DNA of 64,000 nucleotides, from assembly GCF_030028105.1 (NCBI RefSeq), contig NC_092379.1, positions 47,850,150 through 47,914,149 on the forward strand, written 5' to 3'. Positions 1,441-62,380 of this stretch are shown here, in pieces (within the stretch, counting starts at the first letter, position 1; every line of letters begins with the position of its first letter). The stretch comes from Mobula birostris (lineage: Eukaryota). The notes beneath the pieces were generated by a model. That model had not been told where the DNA came from. It saw only the letters and a list, made by a program, of their open reading frames with translations, and ran no database searches. A program made the position numbers and the translations under genes.

Positions 1441-1714
1441 GTTAGGCTGCCTCTGCTGAAAGAGGAACTGTTAAAGTTTCAGATTTAAGGCTCTTTGCCT
1501 AAGCTGAGTAAACACGTCTTTGTGACGTTTTTAGTGTTCACCACACTGACGACTGACACTAAAGTATTGATTTAATTTATCTGCCGTTGCCTTGTTTGCC
1601 ACGATTCATTGCCCTGCCTCTCTTCCCAGTGATCCCATACATTCCTGAGCTAATCCCTTCATTTTCTACACAACTAGAGCGGCCCTTGTTTGTTTTTATA
1701 TCACCGACCAAGTC

Positions 1715-2450
1715 AACACACACAAAACACTGGAGGAACTCAGCAGGCCAGGCAGCAAAGAGTAAAGTGTCGCCATTTCGGGCCGAGATCCTTCAGGAGG
1801 ACTGGAGGAAAAAAGATGAGGAGTCAGAGTTAGAGGGAGGAGAGAGAAGCACCAGGTGATTGGTGAAATTGAGAGGGGGGTGAACTAAAGAGCTGGGGAG
1901 TCGATTGGTGCAAGAGAATCAAGGCTGGAGAAGGGGGAATCTGACAGGAAAGGACAGAAGGTCATTGAAGAAAGAAAGGGGTGAGGAGCCCCAGAGGGAG
2001 ACGATGGGCAGGCAAGGAGATAAGGCGAGAGAGGGAGATGGGAATGGGGACCGGAAAAGGAAGTGGGGGGCGCTATTAGCGGAAGTTCAAGAAATCAAAG
2101 TTCATGCTATGAGGTTGGAGGCTACCCAGACGGAATACAACGTGTTGCTCCTCCAACCTGAGTGTGGCCTCATCGCGGCAGTAGAGGAGGCCGTGAATTA
2201 ATATGTTGGAATAAGAATGAGAAGTGGAATTAAAATGGGTGGCCACTGGGAGATCCCACTTTTTCTGGTGGACTGAGCATAGGTGCTCGGCAAAGTGGTC
2301 TCCCAATCTACGTCGGGACTCACCGATAAACAGGAAGCCACACCGGGAACACTGGATAGAGTAGATGACCCCGACAGACTCACAGGTGAAGTGTCGCCTC
2401 ACCTGGAAGGACTGCTTGGGGCCCTGAATGGTGGTGAGGAGGTGTGGCAC
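1715..2450 (-). mobile_element. Penelope-like element 3' part: GIY-YIG endonuclease, pyrimidine tract and terminal repeat
   Basis: ORF 2076-2471(-) reads FTCESVGVIYSIQCSRCGFLFIGESRRRLGDHFAEH...LRLEEQHVVFRLGSLQPHSMNFDF, a PLE GIY-YIG with CxxC. The shared terminal repeat follows on the same strand. Confidence 0.9.
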
Positions 2451-2651
2451 TTGTTTTAATTCATTTCTCACTCCTTAGTAATTTTAGTCAGTCATTGCTG
2501 GTTCTTGCCTGACGTCGTTTACTTGTCTTGTGAGTACGGGTTGATGTGCATGTTACCAGAAAAGGCATTTAAAGTGCTGTGCAGTTTTCAGGCTGTGTAA
2601 AGATGCTGCAGTCTTTGACTTTAGTATTTTCCTTGACCATTTTTGCAAACT

Positions 2652-3629: not shown

Positions 3630-3692
3630 GGGCCGGCCAGTGGTGTAGTGACATAAGCCACGGACTCCAGGGCGGATGGTCCTGAGTTCAAA
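3630..3692 (+). mobile_element. tRNA-derived SINE head fragment
   Basis: A-box-like TGGTGTAGTG and B-box-like GAGTTCAAA; no acceptor stem. Confidence 0.5.
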
Positions 3693-4025
3693 GTAGCATC
3701 TATGCAGAAGAGTAAACAGTCATTGTTTTGGGCTGAAACCCTTCATTGGGTCCTATAATTGCGATGGGTCAGCTGCATCATCCGTGCGCCTGACTCCCGT
3801 CTCCCTGAACAACTCCTGTTCCAACAACTCAAGGGTACATTTTGTGTGTCTTGCTTTGAGTTCCAGCATCTGCAGATTTTGTCTTGTTTGTGAAGCCATC
3901 TTCTCGTTGCAATCATCAGAGAGCAGTTACAGCAGCCTGAAGACCCACACTTAACAACTTAGGAACAGTTACGTCTCCTCCGCGATTGCTTCTGTACTAT
4001 GTACACTGCAGTACGTAAAATACTG

Positions 4026-5115: not shown

Positions 5116-5645
5116 CACACACACAATGCTGGAGGAACTCAGCAGGGCAGGCAGCATCTATGGAGAAGAATAAATCCTCAAAGTTTCAGGCCGAGACCCT
5201 TCATCGGGACTGGAAAGGAGGAGGCCAGAAGCCAGAATCAGAGGTTAGGTGTGGGGGGCATGTAGGAGGGGGGTGGAAGGAGTACAAGCTGGCAGGTGAT
5301 GGATGATAAGTCTGGTGAGCACGTAGTCAAGGAGTTGCAGAACAACAGAGACCAAAGAGGGGGAGCAGTGAGAGAGTCTCTCACTAAACTGCCCATCGAA
5401 GAGAAGGTTTAAACTTCTCCAAGGTAGGCATACCTTGAAGAGACTTTGCAGAGGAGCAGAAAATCATAAACACAAGAGATTCTGCAGATGCTGGAAATCC
5501 AGAGCAACACACACACAATGCTGGAGGAACTCAGCAGGCCAGGCAGCATCTGGAGAGGAATAAGCAGTTGACGTTACGGGCCGAGACCCTTCATCACATG
5601 TGTATGCTGCTCTGGATTTCCAGCATTTGCAAAATCTCTAGTGTT
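5116..5645 (-). mobile_element. two Penelope-derived terminal-repeat copies; the second is a fold-back unit (5469-5645)
   Basis: TGCTGGAGGAACTCAGCAGG...GGCCGAGACCCTTCATC. AACACAAGAGATTCTGCAGATGCTGGAAATCCAGAGCA is mirrored by TGCTCTGGATTTCCAGCATTTGCAAAATCTCTAGTGTT. Confidence 0.8.
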
Positions 5646-6439: not shown

Positions 6440-7118
6440 CAGAAAAAGATTTTGAAGATGGGTTGTGCAGTCAGATTTTCATGGATACCTGGGCACGCTA
6501 GAGTGAAGGGAAATGAAATTGTGGATGGCATTGCAAAGTCTTCCTTACAGAGCAGGCAAGTAGAAATTAGCGTTCCCCTAGGCAGAGCAGAATTGAGAAG
6601 TAGGATTAAAAAAGGTATAGAGAAGATGTGGCAGGAGGATTGCAAAAATGAATTAAGGGGCAGGCATTATTTTTCTACTCACCCACAAGCTAAAAAGGTC
6701 TCAGACTGTTACCTTTTAAGTCATTGAGATATGGTGAAATTAACAAGACTTAGGTTGGGGCACTGTGGGTTAAACTATTATTTAAAGATAATAGGAAAAG
6801 ATCCCACTGGATTATGTGACTGTGGTTGTCCAGAGACAGTCCAGCATGTTTTGCTGAGCTGTAATCGATACAATATTGAAAGAAGCATGTTGTTCAAGAG
6901 GCTGTCTGGCTTAAATTTATTCTGGTTTTCTGTTAAATCTTTGTTTGGCCATCAAGAGAATCAACATCTGATTGCAGAGTCTATTATTCAGTTTATACGT
7001 GAGACCAGGTTGTATTCGAGAATTTGAGTTTCTTGAAGTTCTATAATTAATTATACATCCTGTGGAGGGCTGTAATACTCCTAGATGTGTCCAAACAGCC
7101 GGAAATAGAAGATGAAGA
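6440..7118 (+). mobile_element. Nimb/I-group LINE 3' end (RNase H + CCHC), 5'-truncated
   Basis: VRFSWIPGHARVKGNEIVDGIAK (RNase H), one in-frame stop at 6725-6727, then LTRLRLGHCGLN...CDCGCPETVQHVLLSC. Short 3'UTR ends in GAAGATGAAGA. Confidence 0.85.
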
Positions 7119-7600
7119 TTTCTGCAGATGCTGGAAATCCAGAGTGACACACACAGAATGCTGGAGGAATTCAGCAGATCGGGCAGCATCCATGGAGATG
7201 AATAAACAGTTGACATTTCAGGCCGAGACACTTCTTCAGGGCTGGAAAGGACGGGGGCAGAAACCAGAATAAGGAGGAGTGGTGGGGGCAGGGGGAAGGG
7301 AAGGAGTATGGACTGGCAAGTGATGGGTGAAACCGAGTGAGGGGGAAGTTGGTTTGATGGGGGAGGAGGGCTGATGTGAGGCACTGGAAGGGGATAGGTG
7401 GAAGAAGTAAAGGGTTGAAGAGGAAAGGAGAGGAGAGTGGACCATGGGAGAAAGGGACGCGGAAGGAGGTGATGAGCAGACGAGGAGAAGAGAAGAGCTG
7501 AGAGGTGAACCAGAATAGGAAATGGAAGAGAGAGGGTGGGGATATTACTGGACGTTGGAGATATTGATGTTCATGTGTCAGGTTGGAGGCAGCCCAGGTG
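7118..7600 (-). mobile_element. Penelope-like 3' remnant with hammerhead-like motif (7207-7243)
   Basis: Same terminal repeat, purine tract and GIY-YIG C-terminal remnant as 1715-2450. Confidence 0.8.
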
Positions 7601-9467: not shown

Positions 9468-9746
9468 AGCAACACACAGACACAAAAATACTGGAAGAAT
9501 TCAGCAAACCAACAAGTATCTATGGAAGGGAATGTTACTTCCCTCCATAGATGCTGCCTGGCTTGCTAAGTACATCAAGAATTTCTTTTCCTGCAAACGG
9601 TTTCCAGCATCTGAAGAATCTCTCATGCCTGCCTCTTTATTTATCTAAGCAACACACATCAAAGTTGCTGGTGAACGCAGCAGGCCAGGCAGCATCTCTA
9701 GGAAGAGGTGCAGTCGACGTTTCAGGCCCAGACCCTTCGTCAGGAT
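9468..9746. mobile_element. Penelope terminal-repeat cluster: fold-back copy plus a young copy with an intact hammerhead core (9712-9746, minus)
   Basis: ATCTATGGAAGGGAA/TTCCCTCCATAGAT inversion. Minus strand reads CTGACGA-AGGGTCTGGGCCT-GAAAC-GTC-GACTG. Confidence 0.8.
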
Positions 9747-15589: not shown

Positions 15590-15830
15590 ATGGTAGCGTA
15601 GTGGTTAGCACGATTACAGTACCCACGACCCGGGTTCACTTCCCGTCGCTGTCAGTAAGGGGTTTGTACGCTCTCTCTGTGACCGCGTGGGTTTCCTCTG
15701 GGTTCACCCCTGACCCCCACCCCCACAGTCCAAAGGCCTGCCGGGTGGCAGGGTTGTAAATTGTCCCATGATTAGGCTAGGACTGCTGTGCAGAAAGGCC
15801 TATTCTGTGCTGTATCTCAATACGTAAATA
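15590..15830 (+). mobile_element. HE1-like tRNA-derived SINE
   Basis: TAGCGTAGTGG A-box, GGGTTCACTTCC B-box, body TTTGTACG...GACCGCGTGGGTTTCCTCTGGG...CCCACAGTCCAAAG, and a CR1-like tail. Confidence 0.8.
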
Positions 15831-15886
15831 TTTTATAATTTTATAACCGTTGCTCAGCCTCCAACGCCGCAGAGGAGGCAAATCCA

Positions 15887-18800: not shown

Positions 18801-19026
18801 CGTCACCCCTACCTGCTCCAGGTTTCATCACCCCTACCTGCTCCAGGTTTCGTCACCCCTACCTGCTCCAGGTTTCGTCACCCCTCCCTGCTCCAGGTTT
18901 CCTCATTCCTACCTGCTCTAGGTTTCGTCACCCCTACCTGCTCCAGGTTTCCTCATTCCTACCTGCTCCAGGTTTCATCACCCCTACCTGCTCCAGGTCT
19001 CGTCACTCCTCCCTGCTGCAGGTTTC
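15887..19026. repeat. 25-bp minisatellite, ~125 copies
   Basis: Unit CCCCTACCTGCTCCAGGTTTCGTCA. The 5' part has AGATTTCCTCA and 24-bp variants; the 3' part contains a 700-bp higher-order duplication. Confidence 0.98.
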
Positions 19027-19480
19027 AAACAACACATGAAGGTGCTGGAGGAACTCGGGGTCAGGCAGCAATGACCGAGGAAAATGGACTGTCCCCCGCC
19101 ACGGGTCGGGACCCTTCATGATGCAGATTCCGGTGCGTGCAGCCTCTGACATCTCCTGGCTTAGAACGCGCCTGTCAAATCTCCACTCAGTCTCAGGTGT
19201 AGTCAGAACCCCAGCGTCACCGATCTTTCAGTCGTGACCCTTGCAGTTCAGGCGTTAGTTTGTAACTGTAACACTATTTTCCTGTTTTCTGTTGTTGATT
19301 TTCCATTTGTACCATCTCGATGGCCTGGCTGGATTTGTTTTTCCCCCTTTTTTTTTGTTTATTTTTGTCACACAGCAGCAGATCAGACCATTACACAGTA
19401 TTGAGGTAGGCAAGGTAAAACAATAACAATGCGGAATAAAGTGGAAGTGCACTGTAGATAAACAAGAAAGTGCAAGATCG

Positions 19481-20582
19481 TAAACAAGAGGGAATCTGCA
19501 AATGCTGGAAATCCAGAGCAACAGACACACAAAATGCAGGAGAAACTCAGCAGGTCAGGCAGCATCTGTGGAACAGTCGGATGTTTCGGGCCGGAATCCA
19601 TCATCAGGACTGGATTGAAGAGGTGAGGTCAGGGTAAGAAAGTGTGTGGGAGGAGGAGCAGAATGTGATGGGTGAAACCAGGAGAAGGGGAGGAGAGAAG
19701 TAAAGAACTGGGAAGTTGATTGGTGAAAGAGATAGCGGGCTGGAGGAGGGGAGATCGGATAGGAGAGGGCAGAAGGCCATGGAAGAGGTTGAACAAGTTG
19801 GATCTTTATTCTTTGGAGCGTAGAAGGTTGAGGGGGGACTTGATAGAGGTGTTTAAAATTATGAGGGGGATTGATAGAGTTGACGTGGATAGGCTTTTTC
19901 CATTGAGAGTGGGGGAGATTCAAACAAGAGGACATGAGTTGAGAGTTAAAGGGCAAAAGTTTAGAGGTAACATGAGGGGGACTTCTTTACTCAGAGAGTG
20001 GTAGCTGTGTGGAACGAGCTTCCAGCAGAAGTGGTTGACGCAGGTTCGATGTTGTCGTTTAAAGTTAAATTGGATAGATATATGGACAGGAAAGGAATGG
20101 AGGGTTATGGTCCGAGTGCAGGTCGGTGGGACTAGGTGAGAGTATGAGCTTGGCACGGACTAGAAGGGCCGAGATGGCCTGTTCCCGTGCTGTAGTTGTT
20201 ATATGGTTATAGGGTTGGGGGGGGGTGATGGGCAGATAAAAAGATAAGGTGAGAGGGGGAGATGGGAATGCTGAAGATGTGGGGTGGGGGGGGGGTGGAA
20301 TGCCAGAAGTTCGAAAATCAATTTTCATGCCATCAGGTTGGAGGCTACCCAGACGGAACACGAGGTGTTGCTCCTCCAATCTGAGTTGTCCCCTCATCGC
20401 GTCAGTAGAGGAGGCCATGGATAGACACATCGGAATGGGAATGGGAATTAAAGTAAGCGGCCACCGGGAGATCCTGGTTTTCACCTCGGGGACGTAGGTG
20501 CTCGGCGAAGTGACGCCGGGCCTCACCGGGCGCACCGGATACAGTGGATGACACTAACAGACTCACAGGTGAAGTGTCGGCT
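19481..20582 (-). mobile_element. Penelope-like element (GIY-YIG remnant plus terminal repeat) interrupted by a CR1 fragment
   Basis: Minus ORF GQLRLEEQHLVFRLGSLQPDGMKIDF. Terminal repeat at 19481-19612 carries a hammerhead-like core. Confidence 0.85.
19784..20211 (+). mobile_element. young CR1 3' fragment nested in the Penelope element
   Basis: RLNKLDLYSLERRRLRGDLIEVFKIMRGIDRVD...QTRGHELRV; tail GGCCTGTTCCCGTGCTGTAGTTGTTATATGGTTATA. Confidence 0.9.
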
Positions 20583-23189: not shown

Positions 23190-23645
23190 ACCACAGATGC
23201 TGCCTGGAGACGCAACAGAGACCGAGCTTGCTGGAAATTCCAGCAACGCACAAAGCTGCGGAGGAACTCAGCAGGTCAGGCAGCGTCGATGGAGGGAAAT
23301 GGGCAGTCAATGTTTAGGTGGAGACCCTTCATCAGGGATGGAAAGGAAGAGGGGAGATAGTCAGGAGACATGTGGGTCCAGGTGAGGGAGGGGAGAGTGG
23401 GAATGATCTCTGATGCTGGGACGAGAGAGACGGAAGGCCGAGGAATGTGGAGCATGGATAAGGGGAGGCAAACCAGTGGGAAGAGTGTGTGGATGATGGG
23501 CTGATGCAGAGGGTGGAGGAGGGGAGAGGGAGGCAGTGGTTGGGGCCAGAGAGAGAGAAGAGATGGGGTAGGAAATGCCACCCGAGTTGGTAAACTGCTC
23601 CACCAGTCAGCATCTCACTCAGGTTCCAGCATCTGCAGCATCTTG
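23190..23645. mobile_element. diverged Penelope-derived terminal repeat with inverted end
   Basis: GGAGGAACTCAGCAGGTCAGGCAGC...GAGACCCTTCATCAGG, purine tract, then inverted TTCCAGCATCTGCAG. Confidence 0.65.
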
Positions 23646-26269
23646 GAATCAGATTTATTATCAGGTGTACATCTGCATACAGTGAAACATGTCTGTGGTA
23701 ACAACCAACATACCCAAAGATGTATTTGTGGCAGCCCACACACGCCGGTGCCAACATATCGTGCCCACAATGCTTGGCAGGGCAACAGGGAACACAACAA
23801 ACTGGAACACACCAAGCAACAACAGCAAGACAAGCTCTATCCCCCTCCCCCACCCATCCACACACATACACAGTCTTCTAACCCCAGGGCAGATCATCAT
23901 CTTCACCTACACCCTCACTGCTGGCCTTTGAATGCAGACCAGAGGCTTAGATTCTGGCCTAATTCCCTCCATTCCTGTACCCAAACCCTAATCAAAGACC
24001 TATCTCCTCTCTCGACCCACAAACCATCCCCAAGAGCCCTAAGCACATGTATAAAACAACTAAGTCTGACACACAAACTCAATGGAGGCTGCAGCTTTGC
24101 CCCATCTTGTCCACTCTGTATCTCCATTCTCACTTCACCAAGCGCCCACTTTGAAGTTCCTCTGCCCGACAGGATTCCTGTGAAATCTTCTCCCACTGCT
24201 CTCCGGCCACGTTCTGCACACTCACCACCAGGCGCCCCTTCACCCCCTTCCCACCAGGATTCCTGGCCATTGTTCCCACCACTCCTTGGCTTTTGGGATT
24301 CGGTGAGCCGCCCCACCCCCACTGTCTGCATTCATATTCCTGATTGTGGTTTCCTTCTTCCTGCCAGAGGTTATCAGTCAACAGCAGAAGCAGAGAGAGC
24401 TCAACCAGCCCTTTAATCCCAGTACAACGATGGCTGACTTACCCAGCATTAGTTTAAATTCCCGCACCATCTCCATTAGCCTGGACCTTTTAGTTCCAAC
24501 ATTTACTGTTTCCAGTATCTGTACAGTTTTGCTCTCAGGTTAATGTTTATTCACCAACATTGCTTTCGCATTTAGATTTTGGCTCTGCCCACATTTTTTT
24601 CCTTTTCTGTTGAAAATCACTTTCATTCTCTTCACCCCCCCCCACCTTTTCTGTATCTTAATACTTGTTCTACCTCCACCTTTCCCCAGTTCTGACAAAA
24701 GGTTATTGACTAGAAACTCTCCCTACAGGTGCGATTGACCTACTGGGTATTTCCAGGTTTCTAACTTCCAGCAGATGCAGTGTATTCTTTTTTTGGATTT
24801 CAGCTTTGTTGACTGTCGCTTCACTTTGAGGATTGCCGCTCCCCCACCCCTTCGTTCCATTTGCCTCTTGTTCACCCCCTTCCTCTGAATGGGATCAGAA
24901 ATACCTTTCCTCTCCTCCCTCCTTCATCAAAGACGTTTCACCTCCAGCCTGTCCCATCTCTGATGAAAAGTCATTGACATGTACTTTGCTCTCCACAGCT
25001 GCCGACTGACCTGTCCAGCATTCCCACTGTCATTCTCGTTCAGTTGATTTCAACATCCGTGTCATATTTCTTGCCACAGAGAGGGAGAATGAAGTCCACA
25101 TCAGCTCTTGGATCGTTCCACCCAGCCCCAGTTCTTACATGTCCATGCTTCCCCACACCTTGTCCCCATCCTTCCACAGCTACTTATACAGCACAGAGAC
25201 TGATCCACATAGCTTTGGGATGAGTGTGGAAACCCATGCAGCACACATTGCACACAGACAGAAGCAGATCAAACCTGGGTCACTGGAGCATGGGAGACTG
25301 CCTCTGGCATGATTTTCAAGTACGACACTGGCTTCATTGAGAGCTCTTGGCATTTGGATCATGGGTTGAGGGGAGGATTAAATGGAGATGACACAATACA
25401 ATTATTGGAGGAGTGATGGGGGGACCAATGCCTCTGATCTGAACCCTGTAAGTTGAAGCCACGCCCAGAAATGCAGTTAAGGATCAAACATTGCATGGGA
25501 TCCCCTCCACTCACGCCAGGGGCACAGAAGCCCAAAGTCCCACACCTCAATTCAAGAACAGCTACTTCTTTTCAACCATTCCATTCTTGAACTGACCAGG
25601 CATCCCTAACCACCTCATCAGAATAGCAACACCATGGCCACCTTGCCCCAGACAGGACCTCATTTTAGTTGGTTCTATTTCCTTCTGAAAAATGTGTGTA
25701 ATTTATGTTTTTGTGAATACTGTTTATGTGACGCTACATGCCTGTGACACTGATGCAAATCTCTTTTATGCACTGGTGCATTTACGTGTGTGCAGGTCAT
25801 AAACTGCAAGTTCAACTTTCCTGCAGATGCTGCAGTTGTCCCAGTGCACAAAACACAAGGGGCCCCCTGCCTGCAGTTCCAGCCCACTCCTGCCCTGCCT
25901 AGTATTTCCACACACCTGAATGCAACATCACATAGTGGACACAGATCTGCACAGCATGGAAACCAGCCTCCCCTCCTTGGGCTCCATCTATATTTCCGAC
26001 TGCTTCAGTAAAACAGCCAACATAATCGAAGTCCCTCCACCCATCCCAGACTGTCTGTCTTCTCCCCTTTTCTCATCAGGCAAAAGGTACAGAAAGCATA
26101 CGACCTGCCTCCAGCTCAGCTTCCACCCCAGTGCAACAGCTTTTCCCCGGAACACTTCCCCGCACAGCACAGAATAACTGCACAAATCTTTAACTGTCAT
26201 GATCAGATATGATGGACACCCACTCAATCGGTTAACCTCTTTTTTTAAAGAATACACCTGAAATCATAT

Positions 26270-26765
26270 TGACAGGTTGCAGGTTGAGTCAGTGGTAAGG
26301 AAGGCAAATACAATGACAGCATTTGTCGCAAAAGGACTAGAATATAAAGGAGGTGTAGTAAGGCACTGGCCAGACTGTATGTGGGGTATTGTGAGCATAT
26401 CTGGACTGTTTCATCTCAGAAAGGATGTGCTGGCAATGGACAGCATCCAGAGAAAGGTCACATGTATTATACCGGGAATAAAAGGGTTATCGAATGAGGA
26501 GTGTTTGATGGCTCTGGACCTGTACTATCTGGCACTTAGAAGAATGGGGGATCTCATTGAAACGTATCGAACACTGAAAGGCCTCGACAGAGATGGCGTG
26601 GAGAGGATGTTTCCGATACTGAGGCAGTCTAGGACCAGAGGACACAGCCTCAGGACAGAGGTGAAGAGGAATTTCTTTAGCCGGAGGGTGAGGGTGGTGA
26701 ATGCATGGAATTTATTGCAGATATGGCTTTGGAGGTCAAGTCATTGGGGGTGTTTAAAGCAGAGG
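26270..26765 (+). mobile_element. CR1 ORF2 C-terminal fragment
   Basis: QVESVVRKAN...KDVLAMDSIQRKVT...GDLIETYRTLKGLDR...TRGHSL...KRNFFSRRV. Confidence 0.88.
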
Positions 26766-26814
26766 ATGACCACCTGCCTCTCCCACCCCTCCCAAAGGGC
26801 CAAGCACCACGCTA

Positions 26815-30848: not shown

Positions 30849-32119
30849 CCTCGGAGGCCGGCTTCCCTTCTCAGCCGCCGGCTTCGGCCGCCCCCCTCGC
30901 GCAATGGCTCAGCCTTGGCGTCGAGCACCTCTGTCGACCGAGCTCGCCTTTCCAATCCCCTGCAAAAAGAGCATTTGACCAAACGTCACTCGCACAGCAA
31001 CAGAGAGCTCTAACAAATTACAGGCAGCAGCATCAAGCACTGAACTCCGAAAGAGAATTCAGCAAATAAATGCTTATTGTTCTTTAGAGAAACAGAAGAT
31101 TTTGGAAATGGACTGCAAGTCAGTCAACAACTTTGAGACCCCTTACCAGAAGTGGGAAAGAGAAACGGTTTGGTCTATAAGCAGCAGTGGTGTACACGTT
31201 CCTGCTTGTGCAGGGATCAACCAAGTTAACGTTTTGCGGCCAGGGACCAAAGGTCAAAATGCTGGGCAAAAGTTGGAAGGATCAGTAGCTTAGCAGTTAG
31301 CATTATACTATTACAGAGACAGTGGCTCGGGAAACGCAAATGAAGCATTGCACTGTGTGTTTCAATGTACACGTGAGAAATAAATCTGAATCTATCCAAC
31401 TAGAATAAACGATGCCCAGCACAGACACTGTGGGCCAAAGGGCCTGTTTCAGAACCAGAATCTTCCATCATCACTGACAGATGTCATGAAATTTGTTGTC
31501 CATGACAGCAGTACAGTGCAAGACAGGATAATTACTGAGTTACAAAGGTCTGTGAGGCGGGGACTCGAGCTGACTGTTAAGGCACTGGAGCTAAACCCCA
31601 AAGGGACGGAGAGACCACCATGTCAGGGTGCAGAGGGGGCTCGAGAAAGCAGGGAAACGGGATCGAGGGTATTGGGGTATCTTTGTGAAAATAGGTTTGA
31701 GTTGGAACTGACAAGCTGTGAAGATGTTGGCTTTGACATGATCTTCTGGAACTGGGGGATTGGCTTTAGACTAAAGGGCTGAATGGCCTCAGAATTATAC
31801 AGCACAAAGAGGGGCTTTTCTACTCAACTCATCTGTTTCAGGCAAGCTGCCTACCTGAGCCAAAATCCCCCGAGACTTTTCCTATCCATCTACCTGTCCA
31901 ATTACCTATTGAATGCTGTAACTGAATACAAGTCAATACTAATGGCCATCACCCTGTGAGAAAACATTGCCTCCCAGGCCCCCTTTCAACCTTTACCCAG
32001 AATCTCTGTCCTGTAGTCTTACACAACCCTACCCCGGGGCAAAGACAGTGACTCCATACCTCTCCGAGGTCACCCCTCAGCCTCCTGAGCTTGAGGGAGA
32101 ACAGCCCTCGCCTGAGGTT

Positions 32120-32472
32120 TACAAGAGGTTCTGCAGATGCTGGAAATCCAGGGCAACGCACACAGAATGCTGGAGGAACTCAGCAGGCCAGGCAGCATCT
32201 GAGGAGGAGAATAAACAGTTGACGCTTTCGGCCAAGACCCTTCATCAGGAAAGGGGAAGAAGCATGAATATCCAGGCAACACACACAAAATGCTGGAGGA
32301 ACTCAGCGGGCCAGGCAGCATCTCTGGGAAAGCCTACAGTCAACAGTTTGGGCCGAGACCCTTCAGCAGCACTCTCCTTCCCACGGATGCTGCCTGGTTC
32401 CTGCTGAGTTCCTCCAGCATTTTGCACGTGTTACTTGGCTTTCCGGCATCTGCAGATTTTCGCTTGTTTGTG
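32120..32472. mobile_element. Penelope terminal repeat: two tandem copies plus one inverted copy, in the zinc-finger 5' intron
   Basis: TGCTGGAGGAACTCAGC at ~32168 and ~32291; inverted GCTGAGTTCCTCCAGCA at ~32403. Confidence 0.85.
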
Positions 32473-37045: not shown

Positions 37046-37429
37046 TCAGAAGAGTGGGATAATCCTGGCGTTATATACAGTGTCAGTATAATGTGAAAGG
37101 GCTGGTTTCTCACATCGAAGGTCCTCTGTGGGTTTAGTCACTTGCTGTTAGTGAATCTGAATTCAATGCAGAATTTTCAATTTGGTTGACAAGTTGAAGT
37201 TCAGACCACAAACGTCCCTGCTATCACCACATTTGTGAAAACCTGTGTGGCAGGATCTGCTGCCGAAACCCTGGTCTAATATCGTTTTGTCACCTCTACC
37301 ATTCGCCCGTCCCTGTCTGGTTCGAAGCAGAAAGCGAAAGTACTGAAACTCAGCACCTGCAGAGAAAGGAAAGAAAATAGTTAGTGGTTCAGGCCCACAC
37401 CCTTTATCAGACCCTTCAGTCTGATGAAA

Positions 37430-38257: not shown

Positions 38258-38715
38258 GAGAAAATTTGCAGATGCACACACAAACTGCTGAAGGAACTCA
38301 GCAGGCCAGGCAGCATCTATGGAAAAGAGTAAACAGTTGATGTTTCAGGCTGAGACCCTTCATCAGGACTGGAAGAAAAAGATGAGAAGTTAGAGTAAGA
38401 AGGGAAGGGGAGGAAGAAGTAAAAGGTGATAGGTGAAACGGGGTGGGGGAGGAGTGGTAAAAAGCTGGGAAGTTGATTGGTGAAAGAGATACAGGGCTGG
38501 AGAAGGGGGAATCTGATAGGAGAGGTCAGGAGACCTGGAGGAAAGGGGAGGAGCACCAGAGAGCAGTGATGGACAGGTAAGGAGATAAGGTGAGATGGGA
38601 ATGGGGAATGGTGAAGTGGGGGTGAGGGGGGCATTACCAGAAGTTTAAGAAATCGACGTTCATACCATCAGGTTGGAGGCTACCCTGACGGAACATAAGG
38701 TGTTGCTCCTCCTGT
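38258..38715 (-). mobile_element. Penelope-like 3' remnant with hammerhead core (38334-38371)
   Basis: Minus ORF EEQHLMFRQGSLQPDGMNVDFLNF; CAGTC-CTGATGA-AGGGTCTCAGCCT-GAAAC-ATC-AACTG. Confidence 0.87.
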
Positions 38716-39983: not shown

Positions 39984-42900
39984 GTTATGTGTATCACTGT
40001 GCTTCACACCCTGGTTTGGAGAAACTGTCTCATTTCTACATTCATTATATGGTTATATACATGTATATAGTTAAGAGACAATAAGCATGACTGGACTTGA
40101 GATGCTGATGAACAGAATGGAGCTTTTACACAATGTGCCAGGTTCGTGGCCTCTTTGACCGCTTTTTGCTTAGCTCTATGATTTGCTTTTTGTTCCAGGG
40201 GTTGAATGGCCAGAATTTAAATACTCTGCCCTCCAGAAGGATGGAGAGAGGAGGGTTCAGATGCTGCAATCTGCAGCCAGATACCAACTGCTGGAGGAGC
40301 TCAGCAGGTCGGGCAGCATCTGTGGAGACTAAGGGTTGGCAGACATATCAGGTCACGAAGGGGATCTTGCAGGCCACGTCAGCGTTGGATCTCTGAAGCA
40401 GCCTCGGGCTGGGTGGCAGGGGTGCAGGCCTGGACGGTATCGCGATGGCGGGGGGACGACCTGGTGTTTGAACAATTTAAACGTTGGCCCAGATGGATTG
40501 AAAAGTCGGAGTATGGGACTGGAGACGGGGTTCAGGCCGACTCGGTAGGTTTGACTCCTCTCTCTGCCGCGCTGAGGCTGTGACACTGCTCCGTGCTTCG
40601 TGTCTGTGAGCTTTGCCCTGCTGTGTGATGAACTGAGGCTGAGGCTGTGGGCCTGCTCCAGGTCTATGGGCTCAGTTTGGCTTGGGGTGCTGGGGCTTGC
40701 TTTTATTGTTCGTACGATTTGTGTGTGTGCCTTTTCTCCTCTTTCTCTGCACGGTGGCTGTGGTCTGTCTTTTAAATGAATTCTTTCAGGTTCCTTGCTT
40801 TGTGGCTGCCTGTTAGGAAACGAATCTCACAGTTGTATAATTTATACAAACTTTGATAATAAATGTAGAATTTGACTGGCGAGGAATCAGTAGACTGTAC
40901 GAACTCCAGAGGGGTCTTGTGCTGAAGAAGTGTTTGGATTAGGACCTCGTTCTAACAAGCACCCTGTTTCAACAGCGATGAGTATTAGGACTGGTCCAGC
41001 CACTGGAGCCTGTTGGATGTGGTTGCTCTTGGCATCCTCCGCGCCTTGGGAAGTGATTCTGTTATTTCCGTCGTTGGTACCCTGAAACACCAGCAGCAGT
41101 AGCAAGGCAGCCCCAGGTGGGTCAGTGCAGAGGTGTTGAGGATCAGTCCTCCTCGGTCAGCACCTTGCAGCTGCCCCAAAACCTCCCCCTGACCAACTGC
41201 AGTCCTCCAGAACAGGTAAAGGGGCTCTGGCTTCTTAGCCGGAACATTCCAGGGCCGGTGGGTCGAGAACAGGCAGGAGGTAATCATTCACAAATAGAAG
41301 CTGTTCTGGAAACGCCATATTACAGAGAGAAAGAACAACAGTTCCGTTGGCACCTGCGGGCCGAGATCCAAGAGGGAGCATGTAGCCTAAAGAATGTATG
41401 ACTGTCGTGTGGGGCAGGTCCTTCACTGTTGTCATAGTGTCTACAGCCCAGATAGAAAGTTTAAAGTAAATTTATTATCAAACCACATATATGTTACTAG
41501 ATACTATCTTGAAATTCATTTTCTTGCAGGCATTGGAAAGGATGAAATACCATGGAGTTGGAGCTTAAGACCACGTGAGCTGTTCTTGTGGTGAGTAAGC
41601 CAGTGATTTACACGGTAGGCAGGCTCTCTTGTACTTTCATTGGCGCCTGAGATCACTTGGATTATTAGGCACTTGGCAAGGGTCAATTAAAGTTGAAGTG
41701 GAGCAGCCTGTGTTGGAGTGCACCAGGGTTAGATTGGGGAGCCAAGACTTTGGCTCAAGAGGCTTCAGTGAACAGCAGTGGAGGTGAAAGCAAGCTCCTG
41801 GTATGTTTCTTTTGATCACAGTTAGAACAAAAGGCACAGGAGCAGAATTAGGCCATTCAGTCCATTGAGTTTGCTCTACTATTCTATCACGGCTGATTTA
41901 TTATCCATCTCAACCTCATTCCCCTGGATTCTCCCCATAACCTTCAACACCCTGACTTATCAGGAACCTGTCACCCTCCGTTTTAAATGTACCCAATAAC
42001 TTGGCCTTCACAGCTGTCTGTGACAATGAATTCCACAGATTCACCACTCTCTAGCTAAAGAAATTCCTCCTCATCTCCATTTTAAACGTCCCTCTGTTCT
42101 GAGGCTGGGTGTCCTCTGGTCATAGGCTCCCCCACCATTGCAAACATCCTCTCCACATCCACTCTATCTAGGCCTTTCAAGACATCGATAAGTGTCAATA
42201 AGATCCCCCCTCATTCTTCCAAACTTCAGTGAGTGCAAGCCCAGAGCCATCAAATGCTCCTCATTCATTAACCCTTTCATTCTCGTGAGCCTCCTCTGGT
42301 CCCTCTCCAATGCCAGCACAACCTTTCTTAAATCAGGGCCCAAAACTGCTCACGATACCCCAAGTGCTGTCTGACTAATTATATCCTTGCTTTCATATGC
42401 TGTTCCTCCCTACGTGAATGTTAACATTGCATTTGCCTTCCTTGCTACCGACTCAACCTGCAAGTTAATCTTTAGGGAATCCTAAATGATGGCTCCCAAG
42501 TCCCTTTGCACTCTGGTTTTTGAATTTTCTCCATGCTTACATGTCTACACCAGTATTCCCTGCACCAAAGTGCATGACCATACACTTCCGTACACTATAT
42601 TCCACCTGTCCACTCTCCCAGTCTGTCTTGGGTCTTTCTGCGAACTCCCTGCTTCCTCAGCACTCCCTGCCCCACCACCTGTCTTCATATCATCTGCAAA
42701 TATGGCCACAAAACCATCAATTGCACTGTCCAAATAATTCACATACAGCGTGAAAGGTCGCGGTCCCAGCACCAAACCCTGTGGAACACCACTGTTCATC
42801 GGCAACCAATTAGAAAAGACCCCCTTTATTCCCACTGCCTCCCGCCTCCTGCCAGTAAGCCAATGTTCTATCCATGCTAGTATCTCTCCTGTAATACTGT

Positions 42901-43759
42901 GGGCTCTCGTCTTGTTAAGCAGCCTCATGTGTGGCATTTTGTCAAAGGCCTTCTGAAAATCCAAGTAAACAACATCTACTGGTTCTCCTTGGTCTATCCT
43001 GCTTGTTATTTTCACAGAGATTTCCAACAGATTTGCAGCACAAGATTTCCCCTTAAGGAAACCATGCTGACTTTGGCCTATTTTATCATATGCCTCCAAG
43101 TAACTTTATACCTATCAGCTCCTCAAGCACCTTCTCCTTAGTAATTGCAAATACATTCACTTCTGCCATCTAACTCTCTCGAATTTTTGGCATACTGCTA
43201 CTGTCTTAACAGTGAAGCCTGAAGCAAAATACTTAAGTGTCCACCATTACTACCTCTCCAGTGTCATTTTTCAGCGGTCTGATATCCATTCTCACTTCTC
43301 TTTTAAATATATCTGAACAAACTTTTGGTATCCTTTTTTATATTATTGGCTAGTTTGCCTTTCATATTTCATCTTTTGTCTCCTCATCACTTTGTTTTTG
43401 CTATGTGTTGGTTTTTAGAAGTTTCCCAATCCTCTAACTTACCACTGAGTTTTGCCATACTGTGTGCCCTCTCTTGCTTTTATGTCGTCTTTGATTTCAC
43501 TGGTCAGACACAGTTGTATCATGGTCTCAACCCTACTTCATCTTTGGGACGTATCCACCCTGTGCCTTCTGAATTTCCCCCAGAAACTCCAGCCATTGCT
43601 GTTCTTCCGTCATCCCCTTCCAATCAGCTTTGGCCAGCTCCCCCCTCATTCCCCTGTAATTCCCTTTACTCCACTGTAATACTGATACATCTGACTTTAG
43701 TTTCTCCCTCTCAAATTGCAGGGTGAATTCTATTATATTATGACCATTGTCTCCTAGGG

Positions 43760-45733: not shown

Positions 45734-46265
45734 GGACAGAGGGAGAAAAAGGAGAGAGAGAAAAATAATGTATGTATATAAATAAATAACGGATGGGGTA
45801 CGAGGGGGAGGTGGGGCATTAGCAGAAGTTTCCCCACCTCCCCCTCGTACCCCATCCGTTATTTATTTGTATACACACATTCTTTCTCTCTCTCTCTCTC
45901 TCCTTTTTCTCCCTCTGTCCCTCTCACTATACCCCTTGCCCATCCTTTGGGTTTTTTCCCACCCTCCCCCTTTTCCTTCTCCCTAGGCCTCCTGTCCCAT
46001 GATCCTCTCATATCCCCTTTGCCTATCACCTGTCCAGCTCTTGGCTCCATCCCTCCCCCTCCTGTCTTCTCCTATCATTTCGGATCTCCCCCTCCCACTT
46101 TCATATCTCTTACTAGCTCTTTCTTCAGTTAGTCCTGACGAAGGGTCTCGGCCCAAAACGTCGACTGTACCTCTTCCTATAGATGCTGCCTGGCCTGCTG
46201 CGTACACCAGCAACTTTTATGTGTGTTGCTTGAAATTCCAGCATCTGCAGATTTCCTCATGTTTG
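45734..46265 (+). mobile_element. young Penelope 3' remnant with 5' inversion and hammerhead motif (46131-46166, G12->A)
   Basis: Inverted repeat 45734-45816 / 45832-45920; AGTC-CTGACGA-AGGGTCTCGGCCC-AAAAC-GTC-GACT. Confidence 0.87.
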
Positions 46266-49429: not shown

Positions 49430-50325
49430 TGATCTTCTTCACTGTCAAGAAGGCCCACCAGCGCCTTTACTTCCTGAGAAAACTAAAGAAATTTGGCCTG
49501 TCCCCTAAAGCCCTCACTAATTTTTATAGATACACCGTAGAAAGCATCCTTCTAGGGTGCATCACAACCTGGTATGGAAGTTGTCCTGTCCAAGACCGAA
49601 AGAAGCTGCAGAAGATCGTGAACACGGTGCAGCACATCACACAAACCAATCTTCCATCCTTGGTAATCATGAGGAATTCTGCAGATGCTGAAAATTCAAG
49701 CAACACACATCAAAGTTGCTGGTGAACGCAGCAGGCCAGGCAGCATCTCTAGGAAGAGGTACAGTCGATGTTTCGGGCCGAGACCCTTCGTCAGGACTAA
49801 CTGAAAGAAACGTCGTCTGTACCTCTTCCTAGAGATGCTACCTGGCCTGCTGCGTTCACCAGCAACTTTGATGTGTGTTGCTTCCGTCCGTAGACTCGCT
49901 TTACACCGCATGCTGTCGGAGCGGTGCTGCCAGGATAATCAAGGACACGACCCACCCAGCCAGCACACTTTTCGTCCCTCTTCCCTCCGGGAGAAGGCTC
50001 AGGAGCTTGAAGACTCGAACGGCCAGATTTGGGAACAGCTTCTTTCCAACTGTGATAAGACTGCTGAATGGATGCTGACCCGGATCTGGGCCGTACCCTC
50101 CAAATATCCGGACCTGCTGCTCGGTTTTTTTGCACTACCTTACTTCCCATTTTTCTATTTTCTATTTATGATTTATAATTTAAATTATTAATATTTATGA
50201 ATTTTTACTATTTTTAATATTTAATATTTGTAATCCAGGGAGCGGAAAGCACAGAATCAAATATCGCTGTGATGATTGTACATTCTAGTATAAATTGTTT
50301 GGCGACAATAAACTATAAAGTATAA
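49430..50325 (+). mobile_element. younger Rex1/Babar-type LINE 3' fragment, itself carrying a fold-back Penelope insert
   Basis: [18 protein letters not shown]...FYRYTVESILLGCITTWYGSC...LQKIVNT, then IIKDTTHP...LPSGRRLRSLKTRTARFGNSFFP; AATAAACTATAAAGTATAAG tail. Confidence 0.9.
49763..49798 (-). ncRNA. minimal type-I hammerhead ribozyme motif (best-preserved copy)
   Basis: AGUC-CUGACGA-A-GGGU(CUCG)GCCC-GAAA-C-AUC-GACU: complete core, stem I AGUC/GACU, stem II and a UH cleavage site. Confidence 0.7.
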
Positions 50326-52590: not shown

Positions 52591-52794
52591 CTTCTGCACT
52601 ATAAGTTGCCAGTGTGTATGGTGGCTAACTTGACTCGTTAAAAATGTTTAATCCTACTACTCAGCTGTTCTCGTTCTGCACATATGTAACAAAAACCTCT
52701 GAATTACATGATAGTAAATAGAAATCTAGATAGTCTTTGATGTGAGGAAGAACAGTTGAAGATTGAGAGCAACAAACATAGTGCAAAATTGAGA

Positions 52795-52928
52795 CCTGAT
52801 GAAGGGTCTCAGCCCGAAACGTCGACTGTACCTCTTCCTATAGATGCTGCCTGGCCTGCTGTGTTCATCAGCATTTTTTATGTGTGCTGCTTGAGATTCC
52901 AGCATCTGCAGATTTCCTTGTGTTTGCA
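52795..52928 (+). mobile_element. isolated Penelope terminal repeat beginning at the hammerhead core
   Basis: C-CTGATGA-AGGGTCTCAGCCC-GAAAC-GTC-GACTG...GATGCTGCCTGGCCTGCTG...CCAGCATCTGCAGAT. Confidence 0.85.
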
Positions 52929-60054: not shown

Positions 60055-60650
60055 TGAATGCCCAACATTGATTGAGGAACTGCTTTGTGAAGCACCTTCG
60101 CTCCACCTGCAACAGGCAGGAACTCCCAGCGGACTACCGCTCCCATTCCCATTCTGACATGTTGGTCTATGACCTCCTCAACGGTCATGATGAAGCTACG
60201 TTCCGGGTAGCCTGACGGCATGAACATCAATTTCTCTAACTTCTGGTAATTCCTCTCTGTGCTCCTTTCTCTCTTTTCCCATTCTGGCTACCTCCTATCC
60301 CTTTCTCCTCACTCTGGTTCCCCTCCTCCTTCCTTTTCTCCTATCATTCACTCTCCTCTCCTATCAGATTCCTCCTTCAGCCTTTTCCTTTTCCATCTAT
60401 CACCTCTCAGCTTCTCACTTCATTTTCCCCCTCCCCCCATCTACCTTCCCCCTCACCTGGCTTCACCCATCACTTGCTAACATATTTCTTCCCCTCCCCC
60501 ATTTATTTCGGATTGTGTCCCCCGCCCTCCCCATCCCTCTTCCTTTCAGTTGTGATGAAGGGTCTTGGCCCAAAACATCAACTCTTTATTCCTCTCCGTA
60601 GATGCTGTCTGACCTGCTGATCTCCTTCTGCATTTTGCATGTGCTACTCT
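60055..60650 (+). mobile_element. Penelope-like 3' remnant nested in CR1
   Basis: GIY-YIG C-terminal DNA (CCTGACGGCATGAACATCAATTTCTCTAACTTC), pyrimidine tract, degenerate TGATGAAGGGTCTTGGCCCAAAACATC. Confidence 0.8.
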
Positions 60651-62209
60651 TTTTTTTTTTAAAAAAAACACCTTCTATCTTCTATATTATTGGCTAGTTT
60701 ACTCTCATTTTGTTTTTTTTTCTTCCGCCCCTTCCGTTGTGTTTTTAGCTTTTTTATATGCTTCCCACTGATCTTTGCCATATTGTTTACCTTCTCTCTT
60801 GTTTTTACTCCACTGTAATACTGTTACATTTGATTCAGCATCTCTCTCAAACTGCAGGGTGAACTCTATCATATTATGGTCACTGTCTCCTAAGTGTTCT
60901 TTCACCTAAAGCTCCCTGATCAATTCTGCCTCACTACCCTCTAAATTGAGAATTGTCTGTTCCCTGGTAGGCTGATCTAAAGAGAAATTTTGTAGATATT
61001 CCCAAATTCCTTTATCTCGGAGGTCCTCTACCAACCTGATATTCCCAATCTACCTGCATATTGAAGTCCCCCGTGATCACTGTAACATCGCTTCTCTTGC
61101 ATGTTTTTGCTGTCTCCTGTATTTTGTAACCCACATCCTGTACGTAATTCCTCCCATCAGGATCTTATTTTCAAACACGAGAAAATCTGCAAATGCTGGA
61201 AATCCAAAGCAATACACACAAAAGACAGGAGGAACTCAGCAGCTGAGGCAGCATCTATGGAAAAGACCGAGACCCTTCATCGGGACTTCTTACTTTTAGC
61301 AGTTCCTCAACTCTAAAGATTTGTACATCTTCTGATCCAATAATCACTCTTACCTGTTGATTTAATGTCCCTTTTACAACTAATGGGGTTATCTCCTCCC
61401 CACACCACCTATCTTTTTGCTAGCATGTATTGTTAAAATGTTTAACTCCCAGAAAGATCCTCTTTCAGCCACATCTCCATGATGCACACAATGTTGTACC
61501 TGTCAATTTCAGTCTGTGTTATAAACTGTGTGCATTCATACACCTTTAATCCTGTATTTGCAGCCTCCCTTCTCAAATGTTTCCTGAAGATGGATTCCTA
61601 ACCTTTCCAAACTTCCCATTGTATATTCTGGAGACATTTTAATAACCTCTCCTTCCCTTTCACTTTATCCAAACGGTTCCAATCTGTTAAACTCCCCTTA
61701 CCCTTTTAAGTTTAAGCCCTAATTCTGATATTTGTCAGGATTGTGGTCCCAGCCTGATACAGATGGGGCCCATCCCATTGGAGCAGCTCCTTCCTGTCCC
61801 AATATGGGTGGGAATGTCTGACACATTCAGCCCCATTTCTCCCACACCGGTCTTTCGGCCGCACGCTACTGCGTTACATTTTGTTGACTCTCTGCCAGTT
61901 GTGATGTATTTCAGGAAGTAATCCAGAGATCACCTTTTTATTGGTTCTGCTTTTCAAATTCAGTTCCCTGCTGCTCCCACTCTCCACTCCAAATATCCTG
62001 TGCAGGCCAGAGGAAGCCAGGCACCAGGCAGGCAACACAGCGATCAGAACTCTCAGTGCTGGCGAGAAAGGAATCTATCCCATCCCCAGTTACAACTACG
62101 TTTCTCTTCTCTCCCCTGCTGGAACGGCACTGTGAACTGCAGCACCCCACAGCCCTCGCACCCATCCACACAGAGCACAAGAATCTCAGACCAGTTAGAC
62201 AAGCTCAAA

Positions 62210-62380
62210 AATACAAGCGATTACGCAGATACTGGAAATCCAGAGTAGCACACACTAAACGCTGGAGGAACTCAGCAGGTCAGGCAGCATCACGAAGGGT
62301 CTCTGCCCCAAATGTTGACTCTATTCCTCTCCGTGAGTTCTGCCTGACCAGCGGAGTTCCTCCAGCATTTTGTGTGTGTG
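62210..62380. mobile_element. fold-back Penelope terminal-repeat unit
   Basis: ACACAC...GCTGGAGGAACTCAGCAGGTCAGGCAG mirrored by CTGCCTGACCAGCGGAGTTCCTCCAGCATTTTGTGTGT around a decayed hammerhead segment. Confidence 0.8.

What the first reader, a model, noticed from the sequence alone, without database searches (positions are those of the whole stretch)
49763..49798. Dispersed minimal hammerhead ribozymes in the window's most abundant repeat
Seen: the terminal repeat that follows the GIY-YIG ORF (sense strand) has the consensus AGUC-CUGA(U/C)GA-A-GGGU-CUCG-GCCC-GAAA-C-GUC-GACU. This gives stem I AGUC/GACU, the full CUGANGA/GAAA/UH core, one extra nucleotide after A9, a 4-bp stem II and a palindromic ACGU in place of stem III. 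Core nucleotides are intact at 49763-49798(-), 52795-52827(+), 9712-9746(-), 38334-38371(-), 32216-32250(-), 19574-19612(-) and 7207-7243(-). Decayed copies lie at ~1770, 3720, 5185, 5570, 23310, 46131 (G12A), 60548, 61265 and 62291, so roughly 15 copies in 64 kb. Established: Penelope-like elements carry minimal type-I hammerheads that are thought to cleave as dimers. Inference: this lineage has a very large genomic load of ribozyme-bearing repeats that are probably annotated only as SINE or unknown.
Basis: partly seen in the sequence, partly recalled or inferred. Interest (0 to 1): 0.7.

Follow-up and report, generated by a model that had tools for sequence, protein, structure and literature searches.

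The report
Penelope retrotransposon ends carrying minimal hammerheads
The repeat is the end piece of a very abundant Penelope-type jumping gene, likely of a shark or ray, and carries an already described tiny self-cutting RNA motif; most copies, and all 20 in this window, have at least one flaw in the motif, and many young copies begin at the motif's front edge rather than at its predicted cut site, which likely marks where their template RNA began.

Summary
The motif is real (all 7 sites match) and fits the published minimal type-I hammerhead of Penelope-like elements (PLEs; PMC4209133). It sits in the pseudo-LTR of a Neptune-type PLE. Full-length copies have a hammerhead at each end, about 3.7 kb apart, around a 1,116-aa RT/GIY-YIG frame. 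A 1.33-Mb sample gives about 534,000 motif copies genome-wide, about 51,000 fully intact (17 of 153). None of the 20 window copies is fully intact; the index copy has lost the ACGU palindrome. Core bases are not better conserved than flanks across copies (10.3% vs 9.4%, p=0.29), but are invariant among subfamily majorities (0 of 11 vs 10 of 27, p=0.02-0.07). Beyond the finding: 5' ends of young copies pile up at the first bases of stem I (16 of 60; 54 of 228), not at the cut site, and one 154-bp five-unit hammerhead array exists. Cleavage was not tested. The scan has found this element before, in this genome and at least 22 others. Verdict: new, very high-copy member of a known kind, with one mechanistic clue.

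The parts
49763..49798 (-). Index minimal hammerhead motif: core intact, stems I and II 4 bp each, palindrome broken by G16.2A
49651..49889 (.). Whole index insertion: young copy 49672-49809(-) from -43 to about +95 relative to the cut, head-to-head inverted partner 49807-49883(+), probable 9-bp target duplication with one mismatch
52792..52925 (+). Short copy from -32 (first base of stem I) to +102 with a 9-10-bp target duplication; core and palindrome intact, one stem I mismatch
9647..9745 (-). Short copy from -30 to +69 with a 14-bp target duplication; stem I cut short
45734..46264 (+). Copy holding the whole 3' repeat (45832-46264, G12A) with an inverted partner 45734-45830; the fold-back explains the miRNA-like Rfam hits below threshold
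1708..2468 (-). Older copy: GIY-YIG remnant (2085-2468, 73% to the intact protein) followed by a decayed hammerhead (1712-1806)
19481..20579 (-). Older copy: frameshifted GIY-YIG remnant (20314-20579) followed by a hammerhead with UCCG loop II, core intact, stems damaged
38260..38711 (-). Older copy: end of the GIY-YIG frame (38640-38711) and hammerhead with intact core, G1.1A and G16.2A
60084..60648 (+). Older copy: GIY-YIG remnant (60084-60243) and decayed hammerhead (60544-60648)
7113..7597 (-). Older copy: last bases of the frame (7545-7597) and hammerhead with intact core and damaged stems
5116..5596 (-). Head duplication: hammerhead and tail (5468-5596), start of the coding frame (5333-5451), then a second copy starting at -32 (5117-5211)
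32121..32470 (.). Cluster of two decayed hammerhead copies (32121-32251-, 32265-32373-) and an inverted partner (32361-32470+)
3692..3753 (-). Decayed copy
19015..19120 (-).
23210..23344 (-). Decayed copy
24684..24789 (+).
37351..37411 (-).
61172..61288 (-). Copy with the 3' half of the hammerhead deleted
62209..62379 (.). Head-to-head pair, decayed hammerhead on the + strand (62292-62379)

Best explanation
The repeat is the terminal pseudo-LTR of a Neptune-type Penelope-like retrotransposon and carries a minimal type-I hammerhead motif that likely cuts only in the parent element's RNA, as a pair of motifs or with help from the element's protein, while the dispersed copies are mostly mutated and likely inert by-products of copying. 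Shown: full-length elements have the order pLTR(hammerhead) - RT/GIY-YIG frame - pLTR(hammerhead); genomic copies end at two sites about 64-75 and 95-105 nt past the cut and are 5'-truncated; a quarter to a third of young copies start within 12 nt at the first bases of stem I; almost none start or end at the cut. Inferred: the protein nicks DNA and starts reverse transcription inside its RNA at those two sites (as shown for the anole Poseidon element), so uncut RNA is the main template. The front-edge pile-up most likely marks an RNA 5' end, a transcription start at the first base of stem I (my odds about 55%; polymerase stopping at the folded or protein-bound RNA about 35%; other 10%). Priming at the site nearest that 5' end would give the 100-135-bp copies. 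Selection acts on the motif only in source elements; after insertion it decays neutrally, fastest at CpG. Cleavage, if it occurs, would trim tandem or read-through transcripts to 3.7-kb units and seems to be a side path rather than the source of most insertions.
For: Two same-strand hammerheads 3,735 nt apart around an uninterrupted 1,116-aa frame in L083, and 3,715 nt apart around 1,112 aa in L086; both ends pass the descriptor in 6 of 7 such loci. RT and GIY-YIG Pfam hits, both below the curated cut-offs; DKG, YIDD, C-X4-C-X2-C linker and CCHH read directly. Architecture matches the consensus in the PMC4209133 supplement. 3' ends of 60 copies: 16 at +65 to +74 and 41 at +95 to +104. 5' ends: 16 of 60 at -38..-27 in copies chosen only by downstream sequence, 2.4% per nt against 0.07% per nt upstream; pooled 54 of 228, mode at -32/-31. 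Cut site: 4 of 188 starts, not above the rate inside the motif (p=0.53), and 0 of 216 3' ends within -6..+8. Target duplications flank short copies. Core invariant among 7 subfamily majorities; differences fall on N7, loop II and single sides of stem pairs. For an RNA end at -32: sharp peak on an A after a pyrimidine (Initiator-like, consensus recalled); 6 of 54 front-edge junctions are joined to sense sequence from the start of the coding frame (7 counting a piece of the motif itself), as a template jump from an RNA end would give; the cDNA hairpin is weak (-2.8 kcal/mol, 29% of windows as low). PMC11167929: internal priming, protein-assisted cleavage, cleavage not needed for insertion in vitro.
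Against: No cleavage or transcript-end data: only contigs were available. The monomer is predicted to fold as an inactive rod in which G5-G8 pair with 15.2-17, and the active dimer scores far worse than competing duplexes (-11.5 to -19.9 against -30 to -34 kcal/mol; the energy model omits tertiary contacts). The youngest subfamily mostly has G10.1-U11.1 instead of the conserved G-C (22 of 31). The subfamily-level selection signal is modest (p=0.018; 0.07 when three CpG-noise columns are discounted). Against a simple start-site reading: 12 of 15 long copies that reach the upstream hammerhead's front edge run past it, and the stop rate there (3 of 15) equals that at the 3' repeat (16 of 55, p=0.74), which a structural stop predicts directly and a start site predicts only if source loci are multi-unit tandems. 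No clear extra G from a cap (11 G of 32 non-inverted junctions). Starts at the cut are slightly above the rate downstream of it (p=0.044), so rare use of cleaved RNA is not excluded. The template-jump junctions come from loci chosen for holding the start of the frame.
Confidence: 0.82

Rival explanations
1. Same element, but the front-edge pile-up is premature termination: the reverse transcriptase falls off after copying the 38-nt hammerhead hairpin or its bound protein, and no RNA begins there.
For: Equal stop rate at upstream and downstream repeats (3 of 15 vs 16 of 55); raised stop rate inside the whole motif (0.5% per nt); RNA hairpin among the 4% most stable 38-nt windows of the element; no clear cap-G signature.
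Against: An RNA roadblock should stop copying at the 3' base of the hairpin, where ends are rare (0.17% per nt at +1..+15); cDNA fold-back is weak; peak is two bases wide on an Initiator-like A; head-duplication junctions.
Confidence: 0.35
2. The motif has become catalytically weak or dead in this lineage and is kept as a structural, promoter or protein-binding element.
For: G10.1-U11.1 in the youngest subfamily; N7=C strengthens the inactive rod fold; no clear trace of cleavage in copy ends; cleavage dispensable in vitro for the anole element (PMC11167929); 8 of 9 Xenopus retrozyme dimers did not cleave (bioRxiv 10.64898/2026.07.22.740005).
Against: All 11 core positions are kept across subfamilies while neighbours change; at the 11.1-G12 CpG the young subfamily took C-to-T (22 of 31) but never G-to-A (0 of 31); related motifs cleave when dimerised or protein-assisted.
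Confidence: 0.25
3. The short copies are an independent ribozyme SINE or retrozyme family that multiplies through self-cleaved circles.
For: Fixed front edge and target duplications; one 154-bp array of 4.9 units, 99% identical, at G000:C12:128,936,858-128,937,608.
Against: Short copies share letters and 3' ends with long copies of the same subfamily and form a continuous truncation series; ends are not at the cut; one array among 40 loci fetched, picked because its repeats showed in the list; its joint (+123 to -31) is not the cut site, and its stem I has a U-U mismatch (0 sense-strand descriptor hits).
Confidence: 0.07
4. Dispersed copies are kept by host selection as working ribozymes.
For: About 51,000 copies are structurally complete.
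Against: Core changes 10.3% vs 9.4% in flanks (p=0.29); G12 changed in 26%; pairing across copies equals the expectation from independent columns; 16 of the 17 intact copies carry the downstream letters of the youngest subfamilies (read).
Confidence: 0.03

Closest known systems
Minimal type-I hammerheads (min-HHR) in pLTRs of metazoan PLEs, including fish Neptune, Poseidon and Xena (Cervera and De la Pena 2014, PMC4209133; read parts 1-2 of 4 of the text and part 2 of 3 of supplement file 2)
   Same: U-rich 5' flank, CUGANGA, one extra base after A9, G at 10.1, GAAA, palindromic 15.2-16.2, NUH, short stem I; two copies about 3-4 kb apart in full elements; most copies single and truncated.
   Different: No cartilaginous fish in the alignment rows I saw; about 51,000 intact and 534,000 total here against about 4,000 (coelacanth) and 9,000 (Xenopus) reported with a different method; low sequence variety here; stem II only 4 bp; G-U at 10.1-11.1 in the youngest subfamily.
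Neptune/Nematis-type endonuclease-bearing PLEs (Craig et al., 10.1101/2021.04.23.441226; passages)
   Same: RT then C-terminal GIY-YIG with CCHH, CX2-5CxxC linker, DKG, partial tandems forming pLTRs, inverted 5'-truncated partner, 30-40-bp tail, hammerhead in the pLTR.
   Different: Neptune versus Nematis not resolved by a tree; longer N-terminal region with an internal duplication of about 210 bp.
PAc, Poseidon element of Anolis carolinensis (Frangieh et al. 2024, PMC11167929; read parts 1-2 of 4)
   Same: Two internal start sites of reverse transcription that give the tail; hammerhead near the start of the frame; no ends at the cut site.
   Different: Other clade; there the frame starts inside the hammerhead, here the first ATG in frame lies about 140 nt past the cut; a 5'-end pile-up at the ribozyme's front edge is not described in the parts I read.
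Non-LTR retrozymes (Li, Clavereau, Pollet, bioRxiv 10.64898/2026.07.22.740005; read parts 1-3 of 5, supplements not seen)
   Same: Tandem hammerhead repeats derived from PLE pLTRs, reported in one chondrichthyan; the 154-bp array L322 resembles this.
   Different: The window copies are dispersed truncations of the autonomous element, not tandem units.

Membership tests
PLE minimal hammerhead (min-HHR) | CUGANGA and GAAA cores with NUH, type-I order | tested here: met
   Family majority and full-length copies; 54 of 153 sampled copies keep the whole core
PLE minimal hammerhead (min-HHR) | Short stems I and II, extra base after A9, palindromic 15.2-16.2 with no stem III loop | tested here: met
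   17 of 153 sampled copies and both ends of 6 of 7 full-length loci; 0 control hits; not met by the index copy itself (ACAU)
PLE minimal hammerhead (min-HHR) | Conserved G10.1-C11.1 pair | tested here: inconclusive
   G-C in 64 and G-U in 61 of 150 copies; the youngest subfamily mostly G-U
PLE minimal hammerhead (min-HHR) | Located in both pLTRs of a PLE, sense strand | tested here: met
   L083-L089
PLE minimal hammerhead (min-HHR) | Compensatory change in stems | tested here: not met
   Across 153 copies pairing equals the independent expectation; subfamily changes are one-sided. Other species could not be fetched
PLE minimal hammerhead (min-HHR) | Self-cleavage as dimer or with protein | not testable with these tools
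   Needs bench work; folding predicts competing inactive forms
Rfam hammerhead families | Covariance-model match | tested here: not met
   No hammerhead among 32 matches at E<=1 in the window; the window holds no intact copy, and intact copies were not scanned
EN+ Penelope-like element | Single frame with RT and C-terminal GIY-YIG | tested here: met
   1,116 aa in L083; RVT_1 E 2.9e-5 and GIY-YIG E 1.1e-3, both below curated cut-offs; motifs read directly
EN+ Penelope-like element | Partial tandem pLTRs, inverted 5'-truncated partner, 30-40-bp tail | tested here: met
Neptune clade | CX2-5CxxC linker between RT and EN (shared with Nematis) | tested here: met
   C-X4-C-X2-C read in three frames; definition
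Neptune clade | RT phylogeny within Neptune | not tested
   No labelled reference set was held
Non-LTR retrozyme | Tandem units each with a complete hammerhead | tested here: not met
   Window copies are dispersed; the one array (L322) has full cores but a mismatch in stem I and fails my strict descriptor

The most novel reading that the evidence does not exclude
In this lineage the Penelope transcript starts on the first base of its hammerhead, and internal priming about 100-135 nt downstream mass-produces complete, SINE-like ribozyme-headed copies from uncut RNA. Template jumps from that same RNA end occasionally build tandem hammerhead arrays such as the 154-bp five-unit locus, which would be non-LTR retrozymes caught at birth. 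The half-million copies would then be a genomic record of the start site, both priming sites and the origin of retrozymes.
Probability: 0.4. Interest if true: 0.6.

Novelty: new member of a known kind. Interest (0 to 1): 0.33.

Why it matters
The association of minimal hammerheads with Penelope elements is published, and their role is still open (10.1101/2021.04.23.441226). This genome adds scale: about 0.5 million copies and tens of thousands of complete motifs, more than the counts in PMC4209133. That many young insertions map the element's copying steps base by base. The map says uncut RNA is the main template and points to a fixed 5' boundary at the ribozyme's first base, which gives a simple test (5'-end sequencing of gonad RNA) of how PLEs make their short copies and how retrozymes may arise. 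It does not show a large load of active ribozymes.

Tried and rejected
Rfam scan of the window: no hammerhead. Pfam did not recognise the two window GIY-YIG remnants; they were assigned by similarity to the intact frame. Copy-level core conservation and covariation: negative. Whole 138-nt end is not more stable than shuffles (z -0.28 to 0.06, 4 sequences). Expression and RNA ends: no RNA holder listed; 4 of 23 runs laid, all contigs of guessed type, no usable starts or ends; not used as evidence. cDNA snap-back as the cause of the pile-up: weak hairpin. Spliced leader: the motif follows a pyrimidine tract and AG, as the D. virilis intron does, but non-inverted front-edge junctions share no upstream sequence. 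Cap-derived G: inconclusive. Earlier notes' claim that joints cluster at the cut: not reproduced in my sample (4 of 188 starts, 0 of 216 ends), which is too small for rare events; no genome-wide junction search was run. The comparison of core with downstream columns among subfamilies (p=0.0017) was dropped as circular, because clusters were made on those columns. One search had mislabelled columns and crashed; redone. Literature: 'Penelope + cartilaginous fish + ribozyme' 0 papers; 'hammerhead ribozyme + shark + retrotransposon' 3, of which one was checked and was irrelevant and two looked unrelated by title; 'Penelope-like + Neptune + Chondrichthyes' 1. The library lacks most subscription papers, and supplement file 1 of PMC4209133 and the bioRxiv supplements were not seen, so a prior shark or ray record may exist. 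Two papers checked for the effect of a G-U pair at 10.1-11.1 gave no data. No structure or complex prediction was run.

Full report
Observation. All seven stated sites match a CUGANGA...GAAA...UH pattern, and all nine decayed copies are present. A profile built from ten window copies finds 29 fragments in the window, 20 covering the hammerhead, and 0 hits on the reversed control sample. It is the most numerous dispersed repeat in the window. However, 0 of the 20 has core, both 4-bp stems and the 15.2-16.2 palindrome together. The index copy reads ACAU (G16.2A), starts 43 nt upstream of the cut, abuts an inverted partner and has a probable 9-bp target duplication. Rfam gives no hammerhead hit.

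What it is. The GIY-YIG remnant at 2076-2474(-) has 176,113 first-look candidates in the 4.01-Gb genome, of which 150 were scored. Following the longest frames led to full-length elements: L083 has a hammerhead, an uninterrupted 1,116-aa frame and a second hammerhead 3,735 nt later; L086 has 1,112 aa; five more loci have both repeats with broken frames. The protein has DKG, YIDD, a C-X4-C-X2-C linker and a CCHH GIY-YIG, with weak Pfam hits. By the definitions in 10.1101/2021.04.23.441226 (passages) this is a Neptune/Nematis-type PLE; no tree was built. The best protein hit is from the shark Chiloscyllium punctatum (71%), the rest of the 120 listed are 42-56% and, where named, marine or aquatic invertebrates, so the host is likely a cartilaginous fish. 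Inverted 5'-truncated partners and a tail of about 40 bp are present. In the window four copies follow GIY-YIG remnants on the same strand.

Load. One exact 33-nt form occurs 1,080 times and an exact 37-nt downstream stretch 40,884 times. In 133 evenly spaced 10-kb stretches from the large contigs (1.33 Mb) there are 303 fragments; 177 span the motif, which scales to about 534,000 (bootstrap 450,000-619,000). Of 153 that span both stems, 54 keep the core and 17 are complete, about 51,000 genome-wide (30,000-78,000). A homology-free descriptor finds the same number, 17, all of this family, and 0 in controls. Small contigs were not sampled. Only 143 exact copies carry the 19-nt joint between tail and coding frame, so copies reaching the 5' end are rare. 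PMC4209133 reports about 4,000 motifs in coelacanth and 9,000 in Xenopus with another method.

Selection. Across copies the core (without G12) differs from the majority at 10.3% of letters and conserved downstream positions at 9.4% (p=0.29); G12, in a CpG, at 26%. Pairing in all ten stem positions is close to the expectation from independent columns. This is neutral decay after insertion. Among seven subfamily clusters (155 of 159 clustered copies; one cluster of 4 dropped), majorities differ at 0 of 11 core positions and 10 of 27 other motif positions: N7, loop II and single sides of pairs (p=0.018; 0.07 if three CpG-noise columns are discounted). Positions without a 60% majority in a cluster were not scored there. 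The youngest cluster has U at 11.1 in 22 of 31 copies and never A at G12.

Folding. Natural monomers are predicted as a rod in which G5-G8 pair with 15.2-17; the active double-hammerhead scores -11.5 to -19.9 kcal/mol against -30 to -34 for competing duplexes (3 intact copies). This agrees with the low activity reported for such motifs and with protein-assisted cleavage in the anole element. It is a prediction without tertiary contacts.

Copy ends (positions relative to the cut after C17). In 60 young copies chosen only by sequence downstream of the cut, 3' ends fall mainly at +65..+74 (16) and +95..+104 (41), matching two internal priming sites as in PMC11167929. 5' ends fall at -38..-27 in 16 of 60, and one lies near the cut. 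The even sample showed the same first (19 of 48 at -46..-20; window copies included). Pooling all held loci, which include sets biased to long copies, 54 of 228 junctions lie at -38..-27 with the mode at -32/-31, the first two bases of stem I; 4 of 188 lie at the cut, not above the rate inside the motif (p=0.53) and slightly above the rate downstream (p=0.044); 0 of 216 3' ends lie within -6..+8. So uncut RNA is likely the main template.

Why the front edge. For an RNA start: a sharp peak on an A in an Initiator-like context (consensus recalled), a weak cDNA hairpin, few ends at the hairpin's 3' base, and junctions where the start of the coding frame is joined to -35..-31 (one in the window at 5116-5596). 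D. virilis Penelope has an internal promoter (PMC2377424, passages), but there the start lies upstream of an intron. Against: among 27 of 39 loci that continue into the frame, 12 of the 15 that reach the front edge pass it, and the stop rate (3 of 15) equals that at the 3' repeat (16 of 55); no clear cap G. I put the start site at about 55% and a structural stop at about 35%.

One array. G000:C12:128,936,858-128,937,608 holds 4.9 units of 154 bp, 99% identical, running from -31 to +123, with an inverted partner and a 12-bp target duplication. The unit includes bases beyond the insertion's own 3' end, so at least one joint was likely made during copying, by a template jump or from a circle; later slippage may have added units. 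It resembles the non-LTR retrozymes of bioRxiv 10.64898/2026.07.22.740005.

Comparison and novelty. It works like, and by every sequence feature tested except two-sided covariation and the G10.1-C11.1 pair is, a PLE minimal hammerhead as in PMC4209133. Cleavage is untested. My searches found no paper describing this motif in sharks or rays beyond one chondrichthyan genome in the 2026 preprint, within the limits of the library. Earlier notes of this scan, read, describe the same element and pile-up in this and at least 22 genomes; they are not independent support. Their claim of joints at the cut prompted and was not reproduced in my small sample. Verdict: new member of a known kind; interest 0.33.

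Noticed in passing
L322 = G000:C12:128,936,858-128,937,608: Five-unit, 154-bp, 99%-identical tandem of hammerhead plus tail with an inverted partner and a 12-bp target duplication; retrozyme-like.
   Followed up: partly
L084, +17 to +85 past the cut; same place in all subfamilies: A conserved pair of inverted repeats downstream of the hammerhead encloses the first 3'-end cluster; loop letters change between subfamilies while the arms are kept. Candidate protein-binding or priming structure.
   Followed up: partly
L083-L089: Youngest subfamily has a G-U pair at 10.1-11.1 and an internal duplication of about 210 bp in the N-terminal part of the frame.
   Followed up: partly
window 29607-30908 (-): Uninterrupted 433-aa C2H2 zinc-finger frame with about 11 fingers and an acidic spacer; looks like a host gene.
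   Followed up: no
window 15828-19121 and 328-1330: Two long tandem arrays with open repetitive frames; the second has telomere-like GGGGTT-rich units.
   Followed up: no
window 45747-45900: Long hairpin giving miRNA-like Rfam hits below threshold; it is the head-to-head junction of the same PLE.
   Followed up: yes
window 10609-11584 (-), 42545-43105 (-), 26262-26891 (+): LINE reverse-transcriptase fragments (RVT_1 hits for the first two); CR1-like by recall.
   Followed up: no
L050 about 6491-6498: CCAAT box about 115 nt upstream of the candidate start at -32 (read); possible promoter element.
   Followed up: no
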